Source: Candidatus Nezhaarchaeales archaeon (GTDB lineage Archaea > Thermoproteota > Methanomethylicia > Nezhaarchaeales > WYZ-LMO8). Taken from it: 64,000 nucleotides of DNA. Made by a program: the position numbers and the translations under genes. The notes under the pieces are model-generated. The model was not told where the DNA came from and ran no database searches. It saw nothing but the letters and a program-made list of their open reading frames with translations. The stretch is from positions 64,001 to 128,000 of the forward strand of contig JAWAKK010000001.1 of NCBI GenBank assembly GCA_038887515.1, given 5' to 3'. This document shows, one piece after another, positions 46,259-57,200 of this stretch (its first letter is position 1; each line of letters begins with the position of its first letter).

Positions 46259-47044
46259 TTAAAGGGGTGGTAGTAAAGCTTCTCCTGGTCTTATGGATTT
46301 AAGCAAGTTGAGAAGCTCTTGCTGACTAATGGCCTTAGATATTGCTAATGGTACACCTTCATTCTTCGCTATTATAACAGCTAATTTGTCTACAGTCTTA
46401 GCTCCGTGGAGTACTATCAGACCCGGCTTCAAACTACCTAAACCGGCTTGCATAGCTTTAAGTGCTACTAGAGGCGACCTTCCAGTACTAACTCTAACGA
46501 ATATTGCTGCTCTCTGGGAGGTTGAACCATAAAGTTTAAGGTAGTCACTTGATGGGACCTCTAAGACCAACTTAATGCTATCTACTACTGTGTAGCCGAG
46601 TAACGGTTTGAACTCTGTATCTTCACCTACTATGAGTTCGGCTTTTATATGTTTACAGAATTCTCCTAAGCTTATGGGTTCTACGAAGTCCCTTATATCA
46701 ATGATAGCTTCTCGTAATGCCTCAGATCCCGTGTATAATCTTCTTAATGGCTCTGTTATCCTTCCTCCTCTTTCATCATCTATCTTAATGAGGGCTGAAA
46801 CTACTTTCCTTACAAACCCTATACCAGGGGACTTCCTTCTCCCACTTTCGTAGTCTGATATAACAGAAGGCGAAACCTTCAAAAAGTGGGCTAACTCGGT
46901 TGTGGAGACCATAAACCTCTGGCGCCAGCTCCTAAGAGCCTGCCCTACGTCGTCTGAGAATATTATTTCGCCTGCTATCCTTACAGCTAGCTCCCGCTGA
47001 CTTGTTGTTAACTCAATTCCAGTCATTGCCGTCATTAAAACCAT
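46259..47044 (-). CDS. Archaeal XRE-type HTH transcriptional regulator (COG1709-like)
   Basis: IAGEIIFS, WR..F, SPSVISDYESGRRKSPG, GYTVVDS, RA.IF..VSTGRSP.VA. Start may be ATG 47026. Confidence 0.85.
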   Translation of the reverse strand: MVLMTAMTGIELTTSQRELAVRIAGEIIFSDDVGQALRSWRQRFMVSTTELAHFLKVSPSVISDYESGRRKSPGIGFVRKVVSALIKIDDERGGRITEPLRRLYTGSEALREAIIDIRDFVEPISLGEFCKHIKAELIVGEDTEFKPLLGYTVVDSIKLVLEVPSSDYLKLYGSTSQRAAIFVRVSTGRSPLVALKAMQAGLGSLKPGLIVLHGAKTVDKLAVIIAKNEGVPLAISKAISQQELLNLLKSIRPGEALLPPL

Positions 47045-47093
47045 CTACGCAACACGTTTTTAGCTCTTCTCCTCTACGAAAAATTAGAAATTC

Positions 47094-47813
47094 ATGAAGA
47101 AGATCGAAGAAAAAGCGCGGGCCAAAATGAGGGACATCATCGAGACCTATGATGCGATAGCGGAGGGCTTCTCTAACACTCGTCGTTATCCTTGGATTGA
47201 GATAGTCCATCTACTTGGCGAAATATCGAATAAAACACTTTTGGACATTGGATGTGGAAATGGAAGGCACTTAGTAGAACTCGCTAAAGGAGCAAGCATA
47301 GCAGTAGGCATAGACTTGTCAAAGAAGCTAATTAAGATAGCTAAGACTCGAATATCTAGGCTAGGAGTTACGCATAAAGCAATGCTCGTCTTAGGCGACA
47401 TGCTCTTTATGCCCTTTAGACCTGAAAGCTTCGATTCCATCGCATGCATAGCGGTGATGCATCACGTGCCGACCAAAAATTTGAGACAGCTAGCTGTTTC
47501 AGAAATAGCTAGAGTTCTTAGGAGTGGCGGGCTAGCAGTCATATCGGCTTGGTACAGATGGCAGAAGAAATTTGTCTTTGATGTTCTAAAAAGCTTCTTC
47601 ATGAAGCTCGTGGGCGTAGTATTTGAATTTGGGGACACTTACATTTCTTGGAAGTCGAAGGGAAAGATATTCAAAAGGTTCTTCCACATATTTACAATAA
47701 GCGAGATGAAGGACTTAATAAATATCGAGGCCTTCGAATTTAAAGACTTAAAACTAGTTGCCATCGGGAGTAAGAGGTTAATGAACGTTGTAGCAGTAGT
47801 TGCTAAGCGTTAA
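47094..47813 (+). CDS. Trm9/ALKBH8-like SAM-dependent methyltransferase (tRNA cm5U34 methyltransferase candidate)
   Basis: YDAIA..FSNTR..PW, LDIGCGNGR, IAVMHH, EIARVL..GG...I.AW, RFFHIF...E; order matches the remembered Trm9/ALKBH8 motifs. Confidence 0.7.
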   Translation: MKKIEEKARAKMRDIIETYDAIAEGFSNTRRYPWIEIVHLLGEISNKTLLDIGCGNGRHLVELAKGASIAVGIDLSKKLIKIAKTRISRLGVTHKAMLVLGDMLFMPFRPESFDSIACIAVMHHVPTKNLRQLAVSEIARVLRSGGLAVISAWYRWQKKFVFDVLKSFFMKLVGVVFEFGDTYISWKSKGKIFKRFFHIFTISEMKDLINIEAFEFKDLKLVAIGSKRLMNVVAVVAKR

Positions 47814-47845
47814 CGCTAATACTAACTTCTTCGAAATATCACTTT

Positions 47846-48502
47846 GTGAGCAATATGTCTATAACAATAGCTTGGCATGGGCACGCCTGCTTTGAAATTA
47901 AAAACCACGTAACGATAGTGGTAGACCCTCATGATGGTACATCCATTGGGATAAAACCCCCGTCGGCTAAGGCTGACTTAGTCTTGATATCTCATAAACA
48001 CTTCGATCATGCTAATGGCTTAATGTTTGTCAAGAAAAATGGCACCGTAGTAATAGATAAGCCGGGTAATTATGAAGTCAAGGGAGTGAAAGTGGTGGGG
48101 ATACCCACCTATCACGATGAATGTCGAGGAGCTAAACGTGGATTAAATACAGTTTACCTCTTTGAATATGATGAAGTTAGGTTCTGTCATTTAGGCGACT
48201 TGGGGCATGTGTTAAGTGAAGATCAAGCCCGTTTCTTAAGACCAGTAGACGTCCTCATGATTCCTGTCGGAGGAACCTTTACTATAGACGCAAAGCAAGC
48301 TAATGAAATTATGAACTTACTATCACCGAGAATAGCAATACCGATGCACTATAAGACGCCTGGACTAAATCTACCGATAGTTGGCGTTGAAGGTTTTATT
48401 GCTGGAAAGACGAATGTAGAACGCTCACAGTCAAATACATACAGGGTATCTAAAGAGACTCTGCCTAGTAAGTTAAAAATAGTTGTGTTAAGTCCACTGT
48501 AA
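47846..48502 (+). CDS. MBL-fold Zn-dependent hydrolase (COG2220-like)
   Basis: WHGHACF, DP, SHKHFDH, HLGDLGH, IPVGG, IPMHY. Confidence 0.85.
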   Translation: MSNMSITIAWHGHACFEIKNHVTIVVDPHDGTSIGIKPPSAKADLVLISHKHFDHANGLMFVKKNGTVVIDKPGNYEVKGVKVVGIPTYHDECRGAKRGLNTVYLFEYDEVRFCHLGDLGHVLSEDQARFLRPVDVLMIPVGGTFTIDAKQANEIMNLLSPRIAIPMHYKTPGLNLPIVGVEGFIAGKTNVERSQSNTYRVSKETLPSKLKIVVLSPL

Positions 48503-48643
48503 CCGACTTAAGTCTCTTATGTGATGTGACTCTTAGGGGATCTAGTGCATGGTCTTTGGGCTAACGTGTTTCATAAAGGTTGCCACAAGAATTTCTCGAA
48601 CCTCAATAACCGAAGATGGTTCAGAAGAAGTGCGAGTTGATGC

Positions 48644-48961
48644 ATGTTGTCGACCATAATAATATCGCCTGAATTCGATATAATACTCGATCCTGAAAAT
48701 ATGGTGATAGGTGAAGCTAGAAGCGACTTAGCTTTACTAGACGTTACGCCCATAGACAAGAAGATTGGCGAGCTCAATGACATAATAGATGTACTGTTCT
48801 GGTCTTTCGATCCAAAAGTATCGACTTCAACGACGCCTAGATCCGGGAAAAGGGGGTTGCCGTTAAAGGTTTACTACTTGCCAGACATGATACTAGGCTT
48901 CCTCGTAGGCTTAGCGCTGTTCAGCCTAATAATAGCGATGCACTTTACATTAACTCTATGA
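48644..48961 (+). CDS. mtrB: Tetrahydromethanopterin S-methyltransferase subunit B
   Basis: I.PEF.I.LDP...VIG, I.EL....D.L..S.DP, G..G, C-terminal TM GFLVG; directly upstream of mtrA. Confidence 0.75.
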   Translation: MLSTIIISPEFDIILDPENMVIGEARSDLALLDVTPIDKKIGELNDIIDVLFWSFDPKVSTSTTPRSGKRGLPLKVYYLPDMILGFLVGLALFSLIIAMHFTLTL

Positions 48962-48994
48962 ATGCTAACGCAAAAATATTAAAGAGTGAGGTAA

Positions 48995-49768
48995 ATGTTC
49001 GTGAGAACCCTTCAAAAAATGAAAGTTGAGCTGGCACCAAATTGGCCCGTAGCGGTTGGAGACTACGTAGTTGGAGATCCTAAAGGTTGTGTTGCGATAT
49101 GTACGTTGGGGTCTGAAGGGATATGCTCATTCCTAGTAAAAATGCCGGGAGTCGCAATAGTTGGACCTTGTAAAACTGAGAACGTAGGTTTAGAGAAAAT
49201 AATATTAAACGTAATATCAAATCCAAACATTAGGTTTTTAATAGTATGCGGAATCGAAGTTACAGGCCACTTACCAGGTCTCTCCTTTAAAGCTCTTTAC
49301 GAAAACGGCATAGAGCCGGCAACTAAGAGAATCAAGGAAGCACCTGGAGCAATACCTTATATAGAACACTTGACCGTTGAAGCTGTGGAACGTTTTCAAA
49401 AACAGGTACAATTTATAGACATGATAGGGGTTGAAGACATAAACATAATTAAAGCTAAAGTCGAAGAACTCGTAACACAAGATCCAGGAGCTTACCCTGA
49501 GCCTCCATTTATCGTAGATATCGAGAAAAAAGAGACGAGAGAAACCACTATACCTAAGTTAATTTTGGTTCCATCAATCACACCATCACTGTCAACCCTA
49601 TCGGCATTAATGAGTGACGTAAAGCGTAGAGTGCAATTAATAGAAAGAGAAAGGAAAATTATAACTGCTGTAGAAGTTACAAGAGCTTGGAGTATAGTAG
49701 CGGGGATATTACTTGCCTTCTTGCTCTTTGGTCTACTAGCACTTGTAGTGATTTTAGGAGGAACATAA
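48995..49768 (+). CDS. mtrA: MtrA corrinoid domain fused to an MtrF-type membrane tail
   Basis: WP...GDY.VG, CTLGS, CKTENVGLEK, NPNIRF, EVTGH (His ligand, codon 49268-49270), GAIPY, RFQ.QV, DPGA. Tail DVKRRVQLIER.RKI..AV..TR matches the MtrF pattern. Confidence 0.9.
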   Translation: MFVRTLQKMKVELAPNWPVAVGDYVVGDPKGCVAICTLGSEGICSFLVKMPGVAIVGPCKTENVGLEKIILNVISNPNIRFLIVCGIEVTGHLPGLSFKALYENGIEPATKRIKEAPGAIPYIEHLTVEAVERFQKQVQFIDMIGVEDINIIKAKVEELVTQDPGAYPEPPFIVDIEKKETRETTIPKLILVPSITPSLSTLSALMSDVKRRVQLIERERKIITAVEVTRAWSIVAGILLAFLLFGLLALVVILGGT

Positions 49769-49769
49769 A

Positions 49770-49973
49770 GTGTCTTCCAAAAGAACCAAGGAAGCGTATA
49801 CAGCTGAAATTGCTTACATCGAAGCTAGAATTAACGATATAACGACGAGAATACAAATGATCGGAGAGAAAGGTAGGTTCACCACGGGGTTTTATCGGGG
49901 CTTCTTTAAAGGCTTCATAATTGGATTGATGGTATCGATAGTGTTACTAACATCAATATTGATAGTTATGTGA
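49770..49973 (+). CDS. Stand-alone MtrA-type C-terminal stalk helix/membrane anchor (sits at the mtrF position)
   Basis: EIA.IEARI..I..RI..IG....F..G.Y.G...G..IGL matches the remembered MtrA C-terminus; single TM helix; GTG start 1 nt after the previous stop. Confidence 0.7.
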   Translation: MSSKRTKEAYTAEIAYIEARINDITTRIQMIGEKGRFTTGFYRGFFKGFIIGLMVSIVLLTSILIVM

Positions 49974-49988
49974 GAGGCGCAAAGTAAT

Positions 49989-50216
49989 ATGTCGCTCGAT
50001 GAGGAAGAATTTAGAGTACCGACAGTTATAGCTCCACCGGAAATCGTTCAACTACATTCAAAGCTTAATGCAATAAACGAAAAAGTGAACTTCACGCTCA
50101 GCGAAGTAGCTCACAAAGAAGGTCTAAGAATGGGTAGCTATATAGGTTTCCTTTACGGTTTCTTAACAGGCTCTATGATAATGTTAGTACTTAAGTTTGT
50201 ACTTAGGATCCTGTGA
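49989..50216 (+). CDS. mtrG: Tetrahydromethanopterin S-methyltransferase subunit G
   Basis: VP.V, KL..I.EKV.FT..E.....G...G..IG.LYG...G. Confidence 0.85.
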   Translation: MSLDEEEFRVPTVIAPPEIVQLHSKLNAINEKVNFTLSEVAHKEGLRMGSYIGFLYGFLTGSMIMLVLKFVLRIL

Positions 50217-50257
50217 GGAGCTGAAATTAGCGTTTTATAGACCCAGCGATGAACTAT

Positions 50258-51763
50258 TCATTCCTCGCATTCGTTTCTTGTCGAACTTTCATTACTACGC
50301 TTAACTTTACGCTCCAGTTTTTGAAACTTTGCCCTTAAGCTCAATATACAGCCCATCCCCCTATTACCTCCTAGAGGATTCTGCGGCGTCCCCAAGGAAT
50401 GTAAACACCTAGCCATTACATTAGCCCCCAAGGCTAAGCCGTCTTCAACGAACACGACTCTTCTATTGACGTCGTCGTTAAATACGCCAAGCTCGTCAAC
50501 ATACTTAAGTATTAAGTAAGGCTTTAGACCTGTTATTCCTGCCCTTCCAGTTATACCTATGGTGTAATTATCATTTATTAAACCGTGCGCTATTAAGGTC
50601 TCCAGGACTCTTTTAGCTATAAGAGCTGAAGTATAATCCAGTATCGCTAAGAGCGTCTTGCCTCCATATTGACTGTAGAACTCGTGACCTAGTGACCGCA
50701 ATTTAGGTAAGTAACTTCCATTATCCCCTACATCGCATCCTATCAGTAATACTCCTTGCTCGCACGCTAACTTTGCATTAATGGGTATCATGCCCACGCG
50801 TACTGCACTTGGAAGGACTTTCCTTACGTCTATGTACTTATGCACTTCATAAGCTAATTCCTCGCACTTCTCAGCATCTATGACGTCTTTGGTCTTAATG
50901 TACTCTGAAAACTCTAAAGCTGACGTCGCGACTTCGGTACCTTGAATTAAAGCATCACAAATAGCTCCAGAGAGACCACATATACTGCCTATAGTCTTGG
51001 CGTAAGGAAGTTCATCATTTGTAACCCTTCCTTTAAAGGTAGTCCCAAAATCCATGGATATTATAGGGTTTCTACAATCTACATCAGTCCACTTAGCTCC
51101 AACCTTTATACCGGCAGTCGAAAGCTCAGCTTCCATCTCATTTGCCATTATCTCACCTCCACTCTTGGGAGGTAGGCAGCCAGCAATCGCTCCATCAAAA
51201 AAGACTACATCAAGTTTTGAATATTCTTTTAAATCATCTGGAAGAGAGTTCTTAGATAAAGGTGCTATCATTTTTGACGGACTTATACCAGCTGCCAGAC
51301 AACCCTTGGCTAATGCCCTTATAACCGAGCCGACTTCTTCTGGTGTTCCAAAGCTAGCGCTAATACCTGTTGATTGCACTACAAAATGTAAATCTTTATC
51401 CCTATCTAGTCCAGCTTCCCTAACGCAAGATACGAGGAAATCCCTGATAAACTCGATTACTGCCATTTCGCTTAGCATCTTCCCCCACAAGGTATAGCCT
51501 AGTAAGCGCTCGTTGGGGTGGGGTCTTCTGATGTTTCGTGTTAGTTCGACTGCCCTCCTTACTAGGTAAATTTTTCCAGTTTTTAAATCAGTAGTAGTTA
51601 TGATGCACTTAGTAGTGGTGTTGCCAAGCTCAATTGATGCGACAGTGAAGAGTTGCCCAGTCCCTCTAGTTGTTACTTTCACAGGATCAATGAACATGCC
51701 GCGCGCAATTCTAGGGTTATACTTGCCGATTTTACCCTTTCTCTTTAAAAATTTAAGCCTCAT
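50258..51763 (-). CDS. Methanogenesis marker protein 14 (DUF2114-like)
   Basis: VASIELGNTTTKCI, DLHFVV.STG, ANEME.EL.TAGIK, D.RNP..S.DFGTT..GR, GITGRAGITG.KP, FVEDGLA.GA..MARC..SLGTP.NP.GG; downstream of mtrH. Confidence 0.85.
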   Translation of the reverse strand: MRLKFLKRKGKIGKYNPRIARGMFIDPVKVTTRGTGQLFTVASIELGNTTTKCIITTTDLKTGKIYLVRRAVELTRNIRRPHPNERLLGYTLWGKMLSEMAVIEFIRDFLVSCVREAGLDRDKDLHFVVQSTGISASFGTPEEVGSVIRALAKGCLAAGISPSKMIAPLSKNSLPDDLKEYSKLDVVFFDGAIAGCLPPKSGGEIMANEMEAELSTAGIKVGAKWTDVDCRNPIISMDFGTTFKGRVTNDELPYAKTIGSICGLSGAICDALIQGTEVATSALEFSEYIKTKDVIDAEKCEELAYEVHKYIDVRKVLPSAVRVGMIPINAKLACEQGVLLIGCDVGDNGSYLPKLRSLGHEFYSQYGGKTLLAILDYTSALIAKRVLETLIAHGLINDNYTIGITGRAGITGLKPYLILKYVDELGVFNDDVNRRVVFVEDGLALGANVMARCLHSLGTPQNPLGGNRGMGCILSLRAKFQKLERKVKRSNESSTRNECEE

Positions 51764-51767
51764 AGTT

Positions 51768-52715
51768 TTAGCCTACAAGTCTTCGATATGGATGATCTTC
51801 ACTTATGGGGAGTCCAAGCTCAAGGTGGGTTGTATCCGTCACAATAGCGTCAGCCATGGCTACTACTGGAAAAACGAATTCTGCATTCTCTATGGGTCCA
51901 TAGAGTACGAAGTTGCCACCGATAATTACTTGAAGGATGTTGCTAGCTATATCGCAGAATCTAAATATCTCTCTACCTCGGGGATGCTCTTTCTTAATTC
52001 TCTTAAGCCACGGCCAGGCCGATATAACGTTATGTAAACTGCTCCCTGTCGGGTAACCGAACTTTGACTTAATGACATACGTTGATGCTAGGGCAGCTCC
52101 TGCACCAGCTCCTAAAGTAGTTACTGCGACATCGATCAATGTAGCCTTGACTCCACACTCATTGGCAATATTAAGTAACCCATTTTTAACAACGCCTCCT
52201 CCGCTCGTTAGTATTGTAACCTTACCCCTTATCGAGGGGTCGGCCGGATTAAACGCCAAAATAACGCTATTAGGCATTTTTAGTTCTCTTAGAACATTAA
52301 ACTCTTCTTCAGTTATTGAAACGTTTATTGAGTTATATACGGCTTTATCGATAAGCCCAACCTCTTTGGCATATTTTGCGCCTTCAATCCTAACTCTAGG
52401 TTCTGTAGAATCTATTAGAAATGGAGATGGGGTGACTGATGCTACAAAATCTATGTACTTCTTCATTGCCTCGACGCTTTCGGAGAATATTTGGACCATG
52501 CAAGGGTTACCGGTTATATCGGACATTTCCTCTTGCTTCTTTATTAACGCCTCGGCTTTGTCTTTATCAAAAAGGCCTTTCCTATGGTCACTTACTATTT
52601 TATGTCCTCCATAAAATATTGTTCCAGCTAAGACCGTAGGGTTTTCGCCTGGTTGTCCTCCTATCTTAACTTTCCCTACTTGGTAAACGTACTGCTCTCT
52701 AGCGAATAGATATAT
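51768..52715 (-). CDS. mtrH: Tetrahydromethanopterin S-methyltransferase subunit H (315 aa; apparent ATA start)
   Basis: Frame extends 63 codons upstream of the track's ATG and contains F..EQ.V......KIGGQPGENPTVLAGTIFY..HKIV.D..KG.FD; also FLIDST, YNSIN, HNV.SAW.W, YGPIENA, HP. Confidence 0.9.
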   Translation of the reverse strand: MYLFAREQYVYQVGKVKIGGQPGENPTVLAGTIFYGGHKIVSDHRKGLFDKDKAEALIKKQEEMSDITGNPCMVQIFSESVEAMKKYIDFVASVTPSPFLIDSTEPRVRIEGAKYAKEVGLIDKAVYNSINVSITEEEFNVLRELKMPNSVILAFNPADPSIRGKVTILTSGGGVVKNGLLNIANECGVKATLIDVAVTTLGAGAGAALASTYVIKSKFGYPTGSSLHNVISAWPWLKRIKKEHPRGREIFRFCDIASNILQVIIGGNFVLYGPIENAEFVFPVVAMADAIVTDTTHLELGLPISEDHPYRRLVG

Positions 52716-53100
52716 TGCAATTACACCTCCAACTAGACAACTTCACTTTTAAGATCCAAGTAACTCTTTAAGCTTTACGTGACTTAACAGTAAAGAATGA
52801 TTAGAATAATTGAAAATTAATTTAGAACACTAAGAAGCCACCTTTATCATAGGGGTCCTTCCAGTTAAGAGATTGTAAGGTTGGGAGATGTTATATTTAA
52901 ATTCGAAGTTACACTTCTAACAGATTCAGGTTAAGCGACGTTCCCGTCTAAATCTTGCCGAAGTCATGTAATCAAGGCAACTTTATGGCTTAAACCAAGG
53001 AGCATTGCCTGTCCCTAAATCGCTCTCGCCTTACGTTTATGGTTCCCCCGACAGTCTTATATACCTCTAACGTAAAAAGAATTGAGGGTTTTTACTAAAT

Positions 53101-54228
53101 ATGGTAGATGAGCTTAACGCGGCTCTAGTGCTAGAAGACGGCTCTATTTTCCTTGGAAGAGGGTTTGGCTTCCCAAAGAAAGTGATCGGAGAAGTTGTGT
53201 TCACTACAGGTATGGTGGGCTATCCAGAATCGATAACTGATCCATCGTATCGAGGCCAGATATTATGTTTTACTTATCCTCTAATTGGGAATTATGGAGT
53301 TCCAAACCCCAATATTAGAGATACTTGGGGACTACCATTACATTTTGAATCTGATAAACCTCAAGTACTAGGAATAATAATCCATGAACTATGCAATAGC
53401 CCTAGCCATTGGGCAAGCGTTAAGAGCCTTCACCAATGGTTGTACGAAGAAGGAATACCCGGAATGTATGGTATAGACACTAGAAAGTTAACTAAGAAGC
53501 TGAGAGTTAAGGGAGTGATGATGGGGGCCCTCGAAGTAAGTGAAGGCGAAGTAAACGTCGACAAGCTCTTTTCACTACTTGAAAGGGCACAAAGATATGA
53601 ACGGCTAGACTTAGTGGGCGAAGTCACAATAAAAGAGCCTATAGTTTATGATAATAGAGGGCCAACAGTTGTAGTAATAGATTGCGGCGTAAAATATGGA
53701 ATAATAAGGAACCTGTTGAGGAGAGGTTTGACGGTCGTAAGGTCACCTAGAGACTCTAGTGCCGATGACGTCTTAAAGTTCGAGCCTAAAGGAATTCTAG
53801 TAAGCAATGGTCCTGGGAACCCCGAAATTAATGTTAAAACTATCAACACAATAAGAGACCTCATAGAAGTAGGAATCCCCATGCTAGGGATATGCCTTGG
53901 AAACCAGATGATAGCTCTAGCCCTAGGAGCATCGACATTTAAAATGAAGTTTGGCCATAGAGGACAGAATAAGCCGTCCATAGACATGGAATCTGGAATA
54001 TGTTATGTAACTAGCCAAAACCATGGATTCGCCGTCCGCGAAGACACATTAAAAGAATCGGGCTTATCACTATGGTTCCTCAACGCTGATGACATGACCG
54101 TAGAGGGATTAAAGCATAGGAAAAAACCAGTAATTGCAGTTCAATTTCATCCAGAAGCGTCGCCCGGTCCCTATGATACCGAGTTCGTCTTTGACATGTT
54201 TGTTAACATCATGGGAGTTGAAAGCTGA
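53101..54228 (+). CDS. carA: Carbamoyl-phosphate synthase small chain
   Basis: GEVVFTTGMVGYPE..TDPSY, GIDTR, SNGPG, GICLG.Q, SQNHG, QFHPE. Confidence 0.97.
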   Translation: MVDELNAALVLEDGSIFLGRGFGFPKKVIGEVVFTTGMVGYPESITDPSYRGQILCFTYPLIGNYGVPNPNIRDTWGLPLHFESDKPQVLGIIIHELCNSPSHWASVKSLHQWLYEEGIPGMYGIDTRKLTKKLRVKGVMMGALEVSEGEVNVDKLFSLLERAQRYERLDLVGEVTIKEPIVYDNRGPTVVVIDCGVKYGIIRNLLRRGLTVVRSPRDSSADDVLKFEPKGILVSNGPGNPEINVKTINTIRDLIEVGIPMLGICLGNQMIALALGASTFKMKFGHRGQNKPSIDMESGICYVTSQNHGFAVREDTLKESGLSLWFLNADDMTVEGLKHRKKPVIAVQFHPEASPGPYDTEFVFDMFVNIMGVES

Positions 54229-57200
54229 TGAGCAAAGAGACCGTTAAGAAGGTCTTAATACTAGGTTCAGGGGCAATAAAGATAGGTGAAGCAGGGGAAT
54301 TCGATTATAGCGGCTCTCAAGCTCTCAAAGCCGTTAGAGAGGAGGGCATTGAAACCGTCCTCGTGAATCCAAACATAGCCACGATACAAACAGACCCTAA
54401 GTTGGCTGGGAAGGTGTACTTAATCCCCGTCTTGCCGGATTTTGTGGCTGAAGTAATAGAAAAGGAGAGGCCTGACGGCATAATGTTGGGCTTTGGAGGC
54501 CAAACAGCTCTAAACTGTGGAGTTCAGCTGTACAATATGGGTGTATTGCAGAAATATGGAGTTAAAGTTTTGGGGACGTCTGTTGAAAGCATAAAGAAGT
54601 GTTCTGATAGACTCTTATTCAAAGAGACCATCGAGTCAGCCGGATTGCCGATGCCTTGTAGCAAGGCGGCTTATAGCATTGAGGAGGCCGTAGAGGTCGC
54701 AAAGGACATAGGCTACCCGGTGATGGTAAGGGTTGCTTATACTTTAGGTGGCAAAGCTTCCGGAATTGCGAGAAATGAGAAAGAGCTTGTGGAGATAGTT
54801 AGAAGAGGTATCGCTCACAGCTTAATAGGGCAAGTGTTGATTGAAGAGTGCATAGCTACGTGGAAGCAGATAGAGTACGAAGTTATGAGAGACAAGTACG
54901 GAGACAGCGTGACCGTATGTAACATGGAAAACATACTTGGCATGAAGGTTCACACAGGAGACAATATAGTGGTAGCGCCGTCTCAGACGATAACTAATAG
55001 GGAGTATCACATTTTGAGGATCGCCTCTATAAAGGCCGCTGAAACACTCCAGATAATAGGGGAATGTAATGTTCAATTGGCCTTAGACCCCACATCGGAA
55101 AAATTCTACATTATAGAGATGAACCCCCGACTATCTAGGAGTTCGGCGTTGGCATCTAAAGCTACTGGTTATCCTCTTGCCTACATGGCAGCGAAACTTG
55201 CCCTAGGCTATAGGCTTCATGAACTTATAAACAAAGTGACTGGAAAAACTACGGCTTGCTTCGAGCCAGCTTTAGATTACGTAGTTCTGAAGTTCCCGAG
55301 ATGGGACTTCCAGAAGTTCGAAGGGGTCGATAGAAGACTTGGAACACAGATGAAGTCTGTTGGAGAAGTAATGGCGATAGGACGTTGTTTTGAAGAAGCT
55401 CTTCAAAAGGCTATTAGGATGCTTGATATAGGGAAGCCAGGCCTGGTTGCAAGTAGCATAAGTGATCGAAACCTTCTAAGACAAAAACTTATCGAAATGA
55501 CGGACGAAATATTATTTGACGTGGCCGCAGCCCTTAAAGCAGGCATGACGGTAGAGGAAATACATGAATTATCTTCTATAGATCCATGGTTCATAGAGAA
55601 GATAAAGAACATAGTCGATATGGAGGAGAAGTTAAGATCGCTCAGAGGTAAGCAGCTTGATGAACTCATCGACATCATAAGAGAGGCTAAGAGACTAGGC
55701 TTCTCGGACAAACAGATAGCCATGTGCCTTGGTTTAACGGAAGACGATGTCAGGAACTTCAGGTACAAGAAGGGTTTGATCCCCGCAGTCAAGCAGATAG
55801 ATACGCTTGCAGCCGAGTGGCCTGCTCAAACAAACTATCTGTACGTGACTTATGGAGGAGAAGAAGACGACGTAGAATTTAAGAAAGACGTGAAAAAAGT
55901 CATAGTGTTAGGCGCGGGCACATATCGGATTGGTAGTTCTGTCGAATTCGATTGGTGTACCATGAACATGGTGTGGGCCCTTAAGGAAAGGGGATTAGAC
56001 GAGGTTATAGTAATAAATTGCAATCCTGAAACGGTGTCCACCGATTACGACATGAGTGATAAGCTATACTTTGAAGAACTGACCCTCGAAAGAGTGCTCG
56101 ACATATGCTATAAGGAGAACCCGTGGGGAGTAATCACGTGCGTTGGAGGACAAATACCGAACAACTTAGCTCCAAAACTCGAGAAACTCGGCATTAGAAT
56201 ACTCGGCACAGCTGGAGAGGATGTAGATAGAGCTGAGGATAGAGCTAAATTTAGTAAACTCTTAGACGAGCTTGGAATATCACAACCTCCATGGGCTAAG
56301 TTCGCCTCAATAGAAGAGGCCGAAGATTTTGCGCGGCGGGTTGGTTATCCCGTACTCGTTAGACCCTCTTATGTTCTAAGTGGCGCAGCTATGAGAGTTG
56401 CATGGACCCCTGAGCAGCTTAGGGAATTTCTAAGGAAAGCGACGAGCGTAAGCCAAGAACATCCAGTTGTGATAAGCAAGTTCATAGAAGACGCCATAGA
56501 GGTGGAGGTTGACGCCGTATCGGATGGTGAGACGACGGTCATAGGGGCAGTTATAGAGCACGTCGAGCGTGCAGGAGTTCATTCTGGAGATGCGACGATG
56601 GTGATACCACCTCAAAGGTTAAGTTCTAATATAATAAAGACAATAAAGGACTATACGAAACGAATAGCGAAGGCCCTTAAGATTAAGGGACCCTTCAACA
56701 TACAGTTCCTCGTTAAGGAAGGAAACGTCTACGTCATAGAGTGTAACTTGAGAGCTTCAAGGTCTATGCCCTTCACCTCAAAGGTTAAAGCTGTTAACTT
56801 AATGAAACTCGCCTCTTACGCTCTGGTTGGTGAGAAGATACCTTGGAAGGGGGACGAGGAACCTCCACCTTTAGCGGTAGGAGTAAAGGTACCACAATTC
56901 TCTTTCATGCAACTTGAAGGGGCGGACCCGGTATTAGGGGTTGAAATGCAATCAACTGGTGAAGTTGCATGCTTAGGCGAAACGTTTACAGAAGCTTTCT
57001 ACAAAGCTCTTCTCGCTGCTGGTTTTAAGATACCCGTTAGCGGAGGGAACATCCTAATAACCGTCGGTGGCGTAGAACTTAAGAAGAAAATACTCCCATT
57101 AGTCAAGTATTTTAGAGCTCTTGGCTTTAACATCCTCGCCACTGAACACACGGCTGACTTCTTAAGAGAGGAGGGCTTCAATGACGTGAAGGTATTGTAC

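What the first reader, a model, noticed from the sequence alone, without database searches (positions are those of the whole stretch)
48644..52715. 'Stalk-only' Mtr module: mtrB-A/F-anchor-G plus mtrH and marker 14, with no mtrE/D/C
Seen in the sequence: mtrB is preceded only by a 140-nt gap and an unrelated MBL hydrolase, and no polytopic MtrE/D/C gene occurs in the 64 kb. Established: the canonical operon is mtrEDCBAFGH; MtrA/B/F/G single-helix subunits form the central stalk, MtrCDE bind CoM and translocate Na+, and MtrH transfers the methyl group from methyl-H4MPT to the MtrA corrinoid. Inference: this locus encodes only the membrane-tethered methyl-H4MPT:corrinoid half. Either mtrCDE are a separate operon elsewhere, or the organism runs a non-ion-pumping, membrane-anchored methyl shuttle with a different partner, or the pathway is being lost. 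All retained genes are intact, including the MtrA His ligand.
Basis: partly seen in the sequence, partly recalled or inferred. Interest (0 to 1): 0.8.

Follow-up and report, generated by a model that had tools for sequence, protein, structure and literature searches.

The report
Mtr methyltransferase without its ion pump
A hot-spring archaeon that has lost methane production has also cleanly deleted the ion-pumping part of its Mtr enzyme, yet natural selection still preserves the membrane stalk, the vitamin-B12 carrier, its methyltransferase and a probable helper ATPase; the gene pattern was published in 2025.

Summary
Window 48644-52715 holds mtrB, mtrA, mtrF and mtrG on the + strand and marker 14 plus mtrH on the - strand. 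No MtrC/D/E, McrA or McrB was found in the 94%-complete genome.

This is a lineage trait, not an assembly gap. Four further genomes of the genus show the same MBL-mtrB junction (141-230 nt) where three relatives carry 2.7 kb of mtrEDC.

The presence/absence pattern is already in print (Sci Adv 2025, PMC12700198: three Methanonezhaarchaeceae species clusters lack MtrCDE after MCR loss).

New here:
- The deletion lies at one syntenic site.
- Stalk-gene dN/dS is 0.18-0.24, against 0.09 in intact relatives. Constraint is relaxed about twofold but still strong, so this is not a decaying remnant.
- Constraint persists on the MtrA corrinoid domain and the MtrH-docking N-terminus of MtrB.
- The H4MPT methyl branch and CdhC are present.

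Marker 14 is an ASKHA-fold ATPase. It co-occurs only with canonical MtrA (11 of 11 against 0 of 390 genomes). It is modelled on MtrA's cobamide face (ipSAE 0.62, best control 0.00). This scan had already proposed that activase idea on Thorarchaeota DNA.

The methyl acceptor is unknown and expression could not be tested.

The parts
48503..48643 (+). 141-nt junction between the MBL hydrolase stop and the mtrB start. This is the site where relatives carry mtrE-D-C.
   Evidence: the gap is 141 nt here and 219-230 nt in G001-G004, against 2712-2716 nt holding mtrEDC in G005, G006 and G009; the G001-G004 spacers align with each other and hold a TATA-like TTTAAATA or similar box. The G000 spacer is shorter and only partly alignable. 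The promoter reading rests on eye inspection only.
48644..48961 (+). mtrB, 105 aa. It has the N-terminal MtrH-docking segment and one TM helix. Its C-terminal tail is 14-19 aa shorter than in relatives.
   Evidence: The N-terminal 44 columns stay 0.81 identical among deletion genomes (0.83 among intact ones). The rest falls to 0.43 against 0.73.
48995..49768 (+). mtrA, 257 aa: corrinoid domain with His92 ligand, linker, and C-terminal stalk/TM helix.
   Evidence: Match to PDB 8q3v_A at E = 7.9e-57 over residues 13-250. G-H is invariant in alignment A2.
49770..49973 (+). mtrF, 67 aa, GTG start, single TM helix.
   Evidence: PF09472, 23.7 bits, cut-off 22. (also matches the MtrA C-terminus model). 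47-78% identical copies lie at the same place in 7 relatives.
49989..50216 (+). mtrG, 75 aa, single TM helix.
   Evidence: 52 bits; TIGR01149, 52.1 bits, cut-off 50.65.
50258..51763 (-). Methanogenesis marker 14 (DUF2114), 501 aa. It is an ASKHA-fold ATPase that starts 4 nt after the mtrH stop. It is a candidate MtrA cobamide (re)activase.
   Evidence: AF2 model at pLDDT 89. ASKHA matches at Z 12.9-17.8. Co-occurrence with canonical MtrA. Complex model with MtrA.
51768..52715 (-). mtrH, 315 aa if read from ATA 52715. This is the methyl-H4MPT:cob(I)amide methyltransferase.
   Evidence: 419.1 bits; 429.9 bits; start codon. It is 79-81% identical to relatives over all 315 residues.
52725..52730 (-). 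GGAGGT Shine-Dalgarno-like motif 9 nt upstream of the ATA start of mtrH.
   Evidence: Read directly.

Best explanation
In a subgroup of one Nezhaarchaeales genus that has lost methyl-coenzyme M reductase, the three polytopic subunit genes mtrE-D-C were excised from the head of the mtr operon. These subunits form the CoM-methylating, Na+-translocating part of the complex.

What remains is kept by purifying selection:
- the single-helix stalk subunits MtrA, MtrB, MtrF and MtrG;
- soluble MtrH;
- marker 14.

The likely product is a membrane-anchored stalk that docks MtrH through the conserved N-terminus of MtrB and carries the mobile cobamide domain of MtrA. It can still exchange a methyl group between methyl-H4MPT and Co(I)-MtrA. 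The organism makes methyl-H4MPT through an intact Ftr-Mch-Mtd-Mer branch. The module can no longer methylate CoM or pump Na+.

Marker 14, an ASKHA ATPase, most likely binds the cobamide face of MtrA and keeps the cofactor active.

What is shown:
- gene content and the deletion architecture;
- selection on the retained genes;
- the marker 14 fold and its co-occurrence with canonical MtrA.

What is inferred:
- assembly of the stalk and methyl transfer;
- the activase role of marker 14;
- any downstream acceptor, which is unknown.
For: 1. Lineage trait, not an assembly gap.
- G000-G004 have MtrA but no MtrE or McrA. G005 and G006, of the same genus, have all three.
- MtrC was found in 0 of 4 and MtrD over cut-off in 0 of 4 of G001-G004, with G005 positive for both.
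- McrB was found in 0 of 5 of G000-G004.

2. Same site.
- The order NMNAT-HTH-SAM MTase-MBL-[mtrEDC]-mtrBAFG-(marker 14, mtrH)-carA is collinear in all 8 loci examined.
- The MBL-to-mtrB gap is 141-230 nt in the five deletion genomes and 2712-2716 nt in the three intact ones.

3. Selection, for MtrB+A+F+G over 514-515 codons.
- NG86 dN/dS is 0.183-0.239 in 6 of 6 pairs among G001-G004 (YN00 0.110-0.216).
- The intact pair G005-G006 gives 0.086 (YN00 0.124).
- Stalk dN is 1.7-2.6 times flank dN in deletion pairs and 1.07 times in the intact pair.

4. Constraint is regional.
- MtrB N-terminus: 0.81 identity among deletion genomes, 0.83 among intact ones.
- MtrA corrinoid domain: 0.82 against 0.91.
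- MtrG TM helix: 0.82 against 0.84.
- Relaxed parts: rest of MtrB 0.43 against 0.73; MtrF 0.60 against 0.80.
- The MtrB N-terminus is the predicted MtrH-docking segment (PMC10998594, passages).

5. The substrate exists in G000.
- Mer 471 bits, Mch, Ftr, Mtd and CdhC are all present.

6. Marker 14.
- Present in 10 of 61 relatives, the same 10 that have canonical MtrA. Present in 0 of 31 f5 genomes, 30 of which have McrA.
- In 401 genomes of the phylum it occurs in 11, exactly the 11 with MtrA at 215 bits or more. None of the 71 genomes with weaker MtrA-like hits has it.
- It lies within 6 kb of mtrA in 41 of 73 mtr loci, in two different arrangements.
- Complex model with MtrA residues 1-183: ipSAE 0.62, best control 0.00. 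That mark was reached by 58 of 80 solved complexes and 2 of 110 mismatched pairs. Runs agree in at least 83% of contacts and partner pLDDT is at least 85. These counts hold only roughly, because my own alignments were used.
- The interface uses the invariant marker 14 helix 141-173 and MtrA residues 59-66, 88-90 (including the His ligand) and 116-123.
- No marker 14 structure is in the PDB by sequence, so the pass is unlikely to come from memory.
Against: - Constraint is relaxed. Stalk branches are 3-5 times flank length in deletion lineages and about 1 times in intact ones. This fits a module on its way out.
- In G000, mtrH has ATA at the conserved start codon. G000 MtrB has lost its C-terminal tail.
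- The marker 14 copy in G003 carries two frameshifts. This is in a draft contig, close to its end, so it may be an error.
- dS is saturated for every pair that includes G000, so no dN/dS exists for the window's own branch.
- Whether the deletion happened once is unresolved. AU p = 0.324 for one clade and 0.11 for the alternative.
- A sister family (f3, 4 of 4 genomes) lives without any Mtr, so the module is dispensable in this order.
- No methyl acceptor was identified.
- The MtrA face used in the complex model is also the MtrH- and MtrCDE-binding face, so its conservation has another explanation.
Confidence: 0.6

Rival explanations
1. The module is a transitional relic. After MCR loss, the remaining mtr genes have no present role and are simply an intermediate stage on the way to complete loss. 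This is the reading offered in the 2025 paper.
For: [quoted passage not shown]
- The stalk evolves 2-5 times faster in deletion lineages.
- mtrH has an ATA start in G000.
- Marker 14 is frameshifted in G003.
- The sister family f3 has no Mtr at all (0 of 4 genomes).
Against: - dN/dS is 0.18-0.24 in 6 of 6 pairs that diverged after the shared deletion, at dS 0.7-0.95.
- All four stalk ORFs are open in 5 of 5 deletion genomes.
- Constraint is concentrated on the functional surfaces.
- The putative activase is retained in 5 of 5 deletion genomes.
Confidence: 0.2
2. The module has an anabolic role: MtrH loads MtrA with methyl groups from methyl-H4MPT for a core (folate-independent) methionine synthase.
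For: - Price et al. 2021 (PMC7857596, passages) predict that MesA takes methyl groups from MtrA.
- G000 has a single core synthase (C3:60952-61932; NF002119 109 bits; PF01717 E = 8.7e-11) with an H-x-C zinc motif.
- In many f5 genomes a MesA-like gene lies directly beside an MtrH-like gene (coordinates).
Against: - Proteins with equal scores to the same model occur in 4 of 4 f3 genomes that have neither MtrA nor MtrH. The synthase therefore does not need MtrA in close kin.
- All scores are far below the family cut-off of 258 bits.
- The G000 synthase gene is not linked to mtr.
- The CoFeSP of the Wood-Ljungdahl pathway is an available alternative donor (CdhC present).
Confidence: 0.15
3. Assembly or binning artefact: mtrEDC and mcr exist in these organisms but were not assembled or binned.
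For: G000 is 94% complete. G001-G004 are 69-88% complete.
Against: - The MBL-mtrB junction is contiguous sequence in five separate assemblies.
- Five gene families (MtrC, MtrD, MtrE, McrA, McrB) are missing together in 5 of 5 genomes.
- Both other genomes of the genus have them.
Confidence: 0.03
4. A non-homologous membrane partner has replaced MtrCDE, so the stalk still feeds a different membrane-bound methyl acceptor or ion-coupled reaction.
For: - TM helices of the stalk subunits stay open and partly conserved (MtrG TM 0.82).
- Faster change of the membrane-proximal parts of MtrB, MtrF and MtrA could be adaptation to a new partner.
Against: - No new gene occupies the deletion site or the operon in any of the 5 genomes.
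- No candidate partner was found, although no genome-wide comparison was made.
Confidence: 0.05

Closest known systems
MtrCDE-lacking species clusters of 'Methanonezhaarchaeceae' (Sci Adv 2025, PMC12700198; section 8 read)
   Same: The same family-level pattern: MCR lost, MtrCDE missing, the other Mtr subunits kept, and the Wood-Ljungdahl pathway conserved. The window's genome very probably belongs to one of the three clusters reported.
   Different: The paper gives presence/absence only, plus one interpretive sentence. It does not describe the deletion site, the selection on the stalk, the regional constraint, the mtrH start codon or the marker 14 link. Its supplementary tables could not be seen.
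Canonical Mtr(ABCDEFGH)3 of methanogens (PDB 8Q3V; PMC10998594, passages read)
   Same: MtrA (E = 7.9e-57 to 8q3v_A, His ligand kept), MtrB, MtrF, MtrG and MtrH are orthologous, in the same order, and form the central stalk plus the MtrH half-reaction.
   Different: There is no MtrC/D/E. That removes the CoM site, the Na+ path and the metallocluster newly reported in MtrCDE (bioRxiv 10.64898/2026.07.03.736320, abstract and section 6 read). There is also no MCR to use methyl-CoM.
Soluble MtrAH remnants of non-methanogens (Thorarchaeia, 'Jinzhaarchaeceae'; PMC9635834 passages, PMC12700198)
   Same: MtrA and MtrH are kept after loss of methanogenesis, with the WLP retained. According to earlier notes of this scan, marker 14 travels with them.
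   Different: Here the membrane anchor and all three other stalk subunits are kept. In my sample, genomes with only a divergent MtrA-like protein, two of them (G010, G024) with an adjacent MtrH-like gene, lack marker 14.
Complete Mtr without MCR (Bathyarchaeia o__B25, PMC9635834 passages; G017)
   Same: Mtr genes are retained in an MCR-less archaeon with marker 14 adjacent (L113, L112).
   Different: Those lineages keep MtrCDE and so could still pump ions. This one cannot.
RACo / AcsV reductive activases of corrinoid proteins (PDB 3ZYY, 4C1N)
   Same: ASKHA ATPase domain, and a proposed action on a protein-bound corrinoid. G000 encodes a true RACo elsewhere.
   Different: Marker 14 has no 2Fe-2S ferredoxin domain. 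It matches RACo no better than other ASKHA proteins (Foldseek ranks 14 and 29, TMq about 0.3). Its chemistry is untested.

Membership tests
Energy-converting Mtr complex (MtrABCDEFGH) | Corrinoid subunit MtrA with histidine cobalt ligand and C-terminal membrane helix | tested here: met
   222 bits; aligned over residues 13-250 to 8q3v_A; G-H invariant in 48 of 48 sequences.
Energy-converting Mtr complex (MtrABCDEFGH) | MtrH, the methyl-H4MPT-binding methyltransferase | tested here: met
   TIGR01114 429.9 bits (cut-off 271.4). Caveat: ATA at the start position.
Energy-converting Mtr complex (MtrABCDEFGH) | Stalk subunits MtrB, MtrF and MtrG | tested here: met
   MtrB by TIGR04166 is 48.2 bits against a cut-off of 50, but Pfam gives 44.1 against 27. 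Orthologous copies are syntenic in 7 relatives.
Energy-converting Mtr complex (MtrABCDEFGH) | Integral membrane subunits MtrC, MtrD and MtrE (CoM methylation and Na+ translocation) | tested here: not met
   no hit at E <= 1 in the genome (93.99% complete); none over cut-off in G001-G004. The syntenic site is empty.
Energy-converting Mtr complex (MtrABCDEFGH) | Na+ pumping coupled to methyl transfer | not testable with these tools
   Absence is inferred from the lack of MtrCDE.
MtrCDE-less Mtr of MCR-less Methanonezhaarchaeceae (PMC12700198) | MCR absent, MtrCDE absent, other Mtr subunits present, WLP present | tested here: met
   (absences). (presences). (Mer, CdhC, Mch, Ftr, Mtd). Fwd was not searched.
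MtrCDE-less Mtr of MCR-less Methanonezhaarchaeceae (PMC12700198) | Membership of that family (f__WYZ-LMO8) | tested here: inconclusive
   Sources name near relatives of the proteins 'Candidatus Nezhaarchaeales/Nezhaarchaeota'. The Mtr patterns of handles f1, f2 and f3 match the paper's three families. No taxonomy tool was run on the genome.
Soluble MtrAH-only remnant | MtrA and MtrH without membrane subunits | tested here: not met
   MtrB, MtrF, MtrG and the MtrA TM helix are present.
ASKHA (actin/Hsp70/sugar-kinase) ATPases, for marker 14 | Two-lobed ASKHA fold with phosphate-binding motifs | tested here: met
   Model at pLDDT 89. Z 17.8 (rmsd 3.3, 250 aligned) to 9b78_A, and many ASKHA chains at Z 12.9-17.8. 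ELGNTTTK and DFGTT motifs are fully or nearly invariant, and the invariant GxTGRA core lies in 48 sequences.
RACo/RamA-type corrinoid reductive activases, for marker 14 | Iron-sulfur electron-input domain fused to the ASKHA domain | tested here: not met
   only DUF2114 hits, with no Fer2 or RACo domains. Invariant Cys453 and Cys472 exist, but cluster binding is untested.
EutA/DdrA-type B12-enzyme reactivases, for marker 14 | Specific structural or sequence kinship beyond the ASKHA fold | tested here: inconclusive
   EutA clusters are the nearest by language-model features at 0.81-0.83, below the 0.9 lead level. DdrA 2d0o_A scores Z 12.9, lower than many unrelated ASKHA proteins.

The most novel reading that the evidence does not exclude
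The stalk-only module is a working, self-maintained enzyme. A trimeric MtrA-B-F-G stalk with docked MtrH and its own ATP-dependent cobamide activase (marker 14) has been uncoupled from ion pumping. It now hands methyl groups from methyl-H4MPT to an acceptor other than coenzyme M, such as the core methionine synthase or a new membrane partner. That would make it a natural minimal system in which the unknown activation machinery of Mtr, and the function of a universal 'methanogenesis marker', could be worked out.
Probability: 0.35. Interest if true: 0.7.

Novelty: already known. Interest (0 to 1): 0.5.

Why it matters
Mtr is the only membrane energy-conserving step of CO2-reducing methanogenesis. 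How its parts can be separated is relevant both to the evolution of methanogenesis loss and to the mechanism of the enzyme.

This lineage is a natural dissection of the complex. The pump and the CoM site are gone, while the stalk, the B12 carrier, MtrH and marker 14 stay under selection.

That argues against the remnants being junk, and it raises a testable question about what MtrAH-type remnants do in the many non-methanogens that carry them.

The strict co-occurrence and modelled contact of marker 14 with MtrA point to a candidate for the long-missing helper that keeps Mtr's cobamide active. That idea is already tied to Mtr in print ('m26', if the mapping in earlier scan notes is right) and was already proposed by this scan on Thorarchaeota DNA. 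Here it gains a second, independent lineage.

Tried and rejected
1. Expression. One DNA run held the stretch (X1, probably the source of this DNA). Two metatranscriptomes of the same study were laid on 47000-54500, and 0 reads of 12.9 million read per run (about 3% of each run) laid. No RNA holder was listed. This is no test of expression.

2. Marker 14 folded from a single sequence gave a useless model (pLDDT 37). It was repeated with 48 sequences.

3. Sequence searches of marker 14 against PDB chains found nothing. phmmer gave a best E of 0.49. The profile of A1 gave 0 hits at E <= 10.

4. ComA as a proxy for CoM biosynthesis gave 0 of 5 genomes, including both MCR-positive ones, so it is uninformative.

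5. MesA-MtrA phylogenetic profile. The core methionine synthase is also present in 4 of 4 Mtr-less f3 genomes, so it gives no specific support.

6. MtaA-type (URO-D) methyltransferases as alternative acceptors gave no consistent pattern. G000 has one partial-domain protein in a soluble corrinoid cluster, G003 has two, G001 and G005 have none, and G006 has one.

7. One literature search was wasted on the term 'Mmp14', which hit the human protease. The repeat found only 2 papers naming marker 14, neither functional. A search for an Mtr activase (MtrA + reductive activation + ATP + corrinoid + methyltransferase) gave 3 papers by listing only, none on an Mtr activase by title.

8. Single against multiple origin of the deletion: AU tests reject neither.

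9. The single complex job went to marker 14 with MtrA.

10. Not searched: Fwd, Hdr, F430 and CoB genes. No genome-wide gene-content comparison was made.

Full report
**What is in the window.**
- The + strand carries four genes:
  - mtrB, 48644-48961, 105 aa.
  - mtrA, 48995-49768, 257 aa.
  - mtrF, 49770-49973, 67 aa, GTG start.
  - mtrG, 49989-50216, 75 aa.
- The - strand carries mtrH (52715-51768), followed 4 nt later by methanogenesis marker 14 / DUF2114 (51763-50258, 501 aa).
- Scores over curated cut-offs:
  - mtrH TIGR01114: 429.9 bits against 271.4.
  - Marker 14 TIGR03285: 566.8 against 274.
  - mtrG: 52.1 against 50.65.
  - Pfam MtrA 222.3, MtrB 44.1 and MtrF 23.7 bits, each over its Pfam cut-off.
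- MtrA by TIGR01111 (239.9 against 249.15) and MtrB by TIGR04166 (48.2 against 50) fall just under the NCBIfam cut-offs.
- MtrA aligns over residues 13-250 with chain A of the Methanothermobacter marburgensis Mtr structure (8q3v_A, E = 7.9e-57). Its His92 sits at the position of the His84 cobalt ligand. That Gly-His is invariant in 48 of 48 MtrA sequences.
- The Pfam MtrF hit on the C-terminus of MtrA only reflects the known likeness of the two helices. mtrF is a separate gene.
- Upstream of mtrB there are 141 nt and then an MBL-fold hydrolase.

**One flaw in mtrH.**
- mtrH has no ATG, GTG or TTG between the upstream stop and Met64.
- The codon aligned with the ATG of G005, G006 and G009 and the GTG of G001 and G002 is ATA. 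It lies 9 nt after a GGAGGT.

**The missing genes are really missing.**
- The window lies in a genome of 1.29 Mb in 9 contigs, 93.99% complete.
- In that genome no MtrE, MtrD or MtrC match exists at E <= 1. There is also no McrA or McrB.
- Among 61 related genomes, MtrA was found in 12, MtrE in 5 and McrA in 35.
- The window's genus splits into two groups:
  - G000-G004 have MtrA but neither MtrE nor McrA.
  - G005 and G006 have all three.
- MtrC (0 of 4) and MtrD (0 of 4 over cut-off, with two chance-level hits of 19.7 and 15.6 bits) are also missing in G001-G004. G005 is positive for both.
- McrB is missing in 5 of 5 of G000-G004.

**A clean excision at one place.**
- tblastn of the window's proteins on the fetched loci shows one collinear neighbourhood in all eight genomes: NMNAT, HTH regulator, SAM methyltransferase, MBL hydrolase, then mtrBAFG, then marker 14 and mtrH on the other strand, then carA.
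- From the MBL stop to the mtrB start:
  - 141 nt in G000.
  - 224, 230, 224 and 219 nt in G001-G004.
  - 2716, 2714 and 2712 nt in G005, G006 and G009, where the space holds mtrE, mtrD and mtrC.
- The G001-G004 spacers align with one another and carry a TATA-like box. The G000 spacer is shorter and shares only short motifs (by eye).
- A Shine-Dalgarno-like run before mtrB is kept in G001 and G004.
- A tree of five flanking proteins gives three lineages in the genus: G000; G005 plus G006; and G001-G004. Their order is unresolved.
- AU tests reject neither a single deletion clade (p = 0.324) nor G000 grouping with the intact pair (p = 0.11). One or two deletion events are both possible.
- Among the best 80 mtrA loci of the species-representative genome collection:
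  - 73 have other mtr genes beside mtrA.
  - 6 of those 73 have too little upstream sequence to judge.
  - Of the remaining 67, only four (L108-L111) lack E/D/C.
  - Those four have the contig lengths of the four sister contigs already fetched, so they are not additional cases.
- This survey covers the 80 best of at least 573 matches, so it is not exhaustive.

**Already in print.**
- The 2025 paper on cultivation of Methanonezhaarchaeia (PMC12700198; section 8 read in full) reports for Methanonezhaarchaeceae:
  - five of nine species clusters encode full MTR;
  - one lacks it;
[quoted passage not shown] - It also reports that Jinzhaarchaeceae keep only MtrA and MtrH, that Muzhaarchaeceae have none, and that the Wood-Ljungdahl pathway is conserved.
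- My handles f2 (MtrA-like plus an MtrH-like neighbour only) and f3 (no Mtr) show the same patterns. Equating them with those families is my inference.
- Adam et al. 2022 (PMC9635834, passages) describe MtrAH and whole-Mtr remnants in non-methanogens.
Supplementary tables of both papers could not be seen.

**Is it decaying? No, but it is relaxed.**
- The four genomes G001-G004 share the deletion and have since diverged, with dS 0.72-0.95 in the stalk genes.
- For MtrB+A+F+G (514-515 codons), dN/dS in the six pairs is 0.183-0.239 by NG86 and 0.110-0.216 by YN00.
- The intact pair G005-G006 gives 0.086 and 0.124.
- Flanking genes give 0.111-0.173 (NG86) in the deletion pairs and 0.077 in the intact pair.
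- Stalk dN is 1.7-2.6 times flank dN in the deletion pairs and 1.07 times in the intact pair.
- On protein trees the stalk branches are about 3-5 times their flank lengths in deletion lineages (G000 terminal branch 0.56 against 0.20). They are about 1 times in G005, G006 and G009.
- All four stalk ORFs are open in 5 of 5 deletion genomes.
- Rows dropped or unusable:
  - the G003 marker 14 copy (frameshifted);
  - the G005 HTH gene (my extraction failed);
  - all pairs with G000, where dS is saturated.
- Because of that saturation there is no dN/dS for the window's own branch.

**Where the constraint sits.**
- Among deletion genomes the first 44 alignment columns of MtrB are 0.81 identical, against 0.83 among intact genomes. 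The rest of MtrB is 0.43 against 0.73.
- Other regions, deletion against intact:
  - MtrA corrinoid domain: 0.82 against 0.91.
  - MtrA stalk/TM part: 0.52 against 0.69.
  - MtrF: 0.60 against 0.80.
  - MtrG cytoplasmic part: 0.59 against 0.75.
  - MtrG TM helix: 0.82 against 0.84.
- The Mtr structure paper (PMC10998594, passages) describes the stalk as a trimer of the MtrA C-terminal helix with MtrB, MtrF and MtrG. [quoted passage not shown]
- The parts that serve the MtrH-MtrA half-reaction are the ones still held. That fits a working half-complex better than neutral decay.

**Metabolic setting.**
- G000 encodes four H4MPT methyl-branch enzymes, all between 37 and 46 kb of contig C1, and CdhC:
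  - Ftr.
  - Mtd.
  - Mch.
  - Mer, 471 bits.
  - CdhC.
- Methyl-H4MPT is therefore made and consumed.
- Outside the window, at C1:240375-249315, lies a soluble corrinoid methyltransferase set:
  - a second MtrH-family protein (NF002142, 264 bits);
  - a RACo/AcsV activase;
  - an MtaC-type corrinoid protein;
  - a URO-D-like methyltransferase;
  - a sodium:solute symporter;
  - B12 uptake genes beside them.
- The organism thus has a separate route for feeding methyl groups to H4MPT. The canonical MtrH-MtrA pair is not needed for that.

**Marker 14.**
- With 48 homologues it folds confidently (pLDDT 89, pTM 0.89).
- It is an ASKHA-fold protein: Z 17.8 to CoaX 9b78_A (rmsd 3.3, 250 aligned), with many other ASKHA chains at Z 12.9-17.8. 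These include activator ATPases (9gai_C, 4eht_A), EutJ and DdrA.
- Foldseek agrees but gives low TM scores, with RACo at ranks 14 and 29. No subfamily can be named.
- The motifs ELGNTTTK and DFGTT, the GxTGRA core, and Cys453 and Cys472 are invariant or nearly so.
- Its distribution follows canonical Mtr, not MCR:
  - It occurs in 10 of 61 relatives, the same 10 that have MtrA at 215 bits or more.
  - It occurs in 0 of 31 f5 genomes, 30 of which have McrA.
  - In a sample of 401 genomes of the phylum it occurs in 11, again exactly those with canonical MtrA.
  - None of the 71 genomes with weaker MtrA-like hits has it.
  - These genomes are kin, representing perhaps three or four independent lineages.
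- Across 73 mtr loci it lies within 6 kb in 41:
  - 23 times divergent, directly upstream of mtrE;
  - 14 times directly after mtrH;
  - 4 times in other positions.
- A complex model of marker 14 with MtrA residues 1-183 scored ipSAE 0.62 (runs 0.54-0.66) against a best control of 0.00.
  - That mark was reached by 58 of 80 solved complexes and 2 of 110 mismatched pairs.
  - Runs agree in at least 83% of contacts, and partner pLDDT is at least 85.
  - The counts hold only roughly, because my own alignments were used.
- The contact joins the conserved marker 14 helix 141-173 to MtrA residues 59-66, 88-90 (with the His ligand) and 116-123. This is the cobamide face.
- This supports binding but does not show it. 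That face is also where MtrH and MtrCDE bind.
- Earlier notes of this scan had already proposed marker 14 as an MtrA cobamide activase, from Thorarchaeota DNA. They equate it with marker 'm26' of Adam et al.
- The paper does say that m26 'is tied to Mtr'. I could not verify the mapping of m26 to DUF2114.
- Only 2 papers in the searchable library name marker 14, and neither gives a function.

**What takes the methyl group.**
- This is unknown.
- Price et al. 2021 predicted that MtrA donates methyl groups to core methionine synthase MesA (PMC7857596, passages).
- G000 has one such core synthase.
- Proteins that match the same model with equal scores occur in 4 of 4 f3 genomes that have no Mtr. 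The profile therefore gives no specific support.
- URO-D-type methyltransferases show no consistent pattern among the deletion genomes.

**Verdict.**
- The finding is real and correctly read, but the pattern was published in December 2025.
  - The deletion is a clean, syntenic excision.
  - The leftover stalk, MtrH and marker 14 remain under purifying selection, concentrated on the MtrH-MtrA half-reaction surfaces.
  - The substrate pathway is intact.
  - Marker 14 tracks canonical MtrA strictly and is modelled on its cobamide face.
- Against full function in this particular genome stand the ATA start of mtrH, the shortened MtrB tail and the roughly threefold faster stalk evolution.
- Expression could not be tested.

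Noticed in passing
G000 contig C1:238012-249315 (outside the window; locus L104): A soluble corrinoid methyltransferase cluster. It holds B12 ABC-transport genes, a second MtrH-family protein (300 aa), a RACo/AcsV reductive activase (637 aa), an MtaC-type corrinoid protein (221 aa), a 444-aa protein with a URO-D-like C-terminal half, a CocE/NonD hydrolase and a sodium:solute symporter. It looks like a substrate:H4MPT methyl-transfer system of unknown substrate. Similar pieces occur in G006.
   Followed up: partly
window 52713-52730 (- strand): mtrH has ATA at the conserved start position, 9 nt after GGAGGT. Relatives have ATG (G005, G006, G009) or GTG (G001, G002). This is either a rare start codon, lowered expression or early decay.
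   Followed up: partly
L026 (G003 contig C42) 22-1038: The marker 14 copy of G003 is broken by two compensating frameshifts about 120 nt apart (3 in-frame stops in the main frame), in a short draft contig and close to its end. It could be real decay or an assembly error.
   Followed up: partly
Loci of family f5, e.g. G042:C1:170645-172371, G047:C37:51680-53367, G032:C13:27590-29301: In many MCR-positive, Mtr-less f5 genomes a MesA-like core methionine synthase (about 220-260 bits to NF002119) lies directly beside an MtrH-like gene (about 90-135 bits to TIGR01114). This gene pair fits the idea that MtrH-family enzymes and corrinoids feed core methionine synthases.
   Followed up: no
L106-L185 (80 mtrA loci of species-representative genomes): Marker 14 sits next to the mtr operon in two alternative arrangements. 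It is divergent upstream of mtrE in 23 loci, many titled Methanophagales or ANME-1. It is directly downstream of mtrH in 14 loci, including Methanobrevibacter- or Methanosphaera-titled ones and the Thermoproteota ones.
   Followed up: partly
Phylum sample, family f10 (e.g. G262:C1:1238682-1239098): 48 of 56 genomes of one family in the phylum carry a short (about 155-190 aa), anchorless MtrA-like protein (61-101 bits) without marker 14. Seven Methanobrevibacter-type loci (L166, L168, L170, L177, L180, L181, L185) likewise hold a solitary mtrA-like gene.
   Followed up: no
G000 contig C1:37778-45633 (upstream of the window): Ftr, Mtd, Mer and Mch lie clustered within 8 kb, about 20 kb before the window start. 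The same grouping is seen in G003 (C4) and G005 (C1:919-927 kb).
   Followed up: no
G017 (L031/L113): A 2.8-Mb genome of another family in the class has a complete mtrEDCBAFGH plus marker 14 but no McrA hit (93% complete). This is a further case of whole Mtr without MCR.
   Followed up: no
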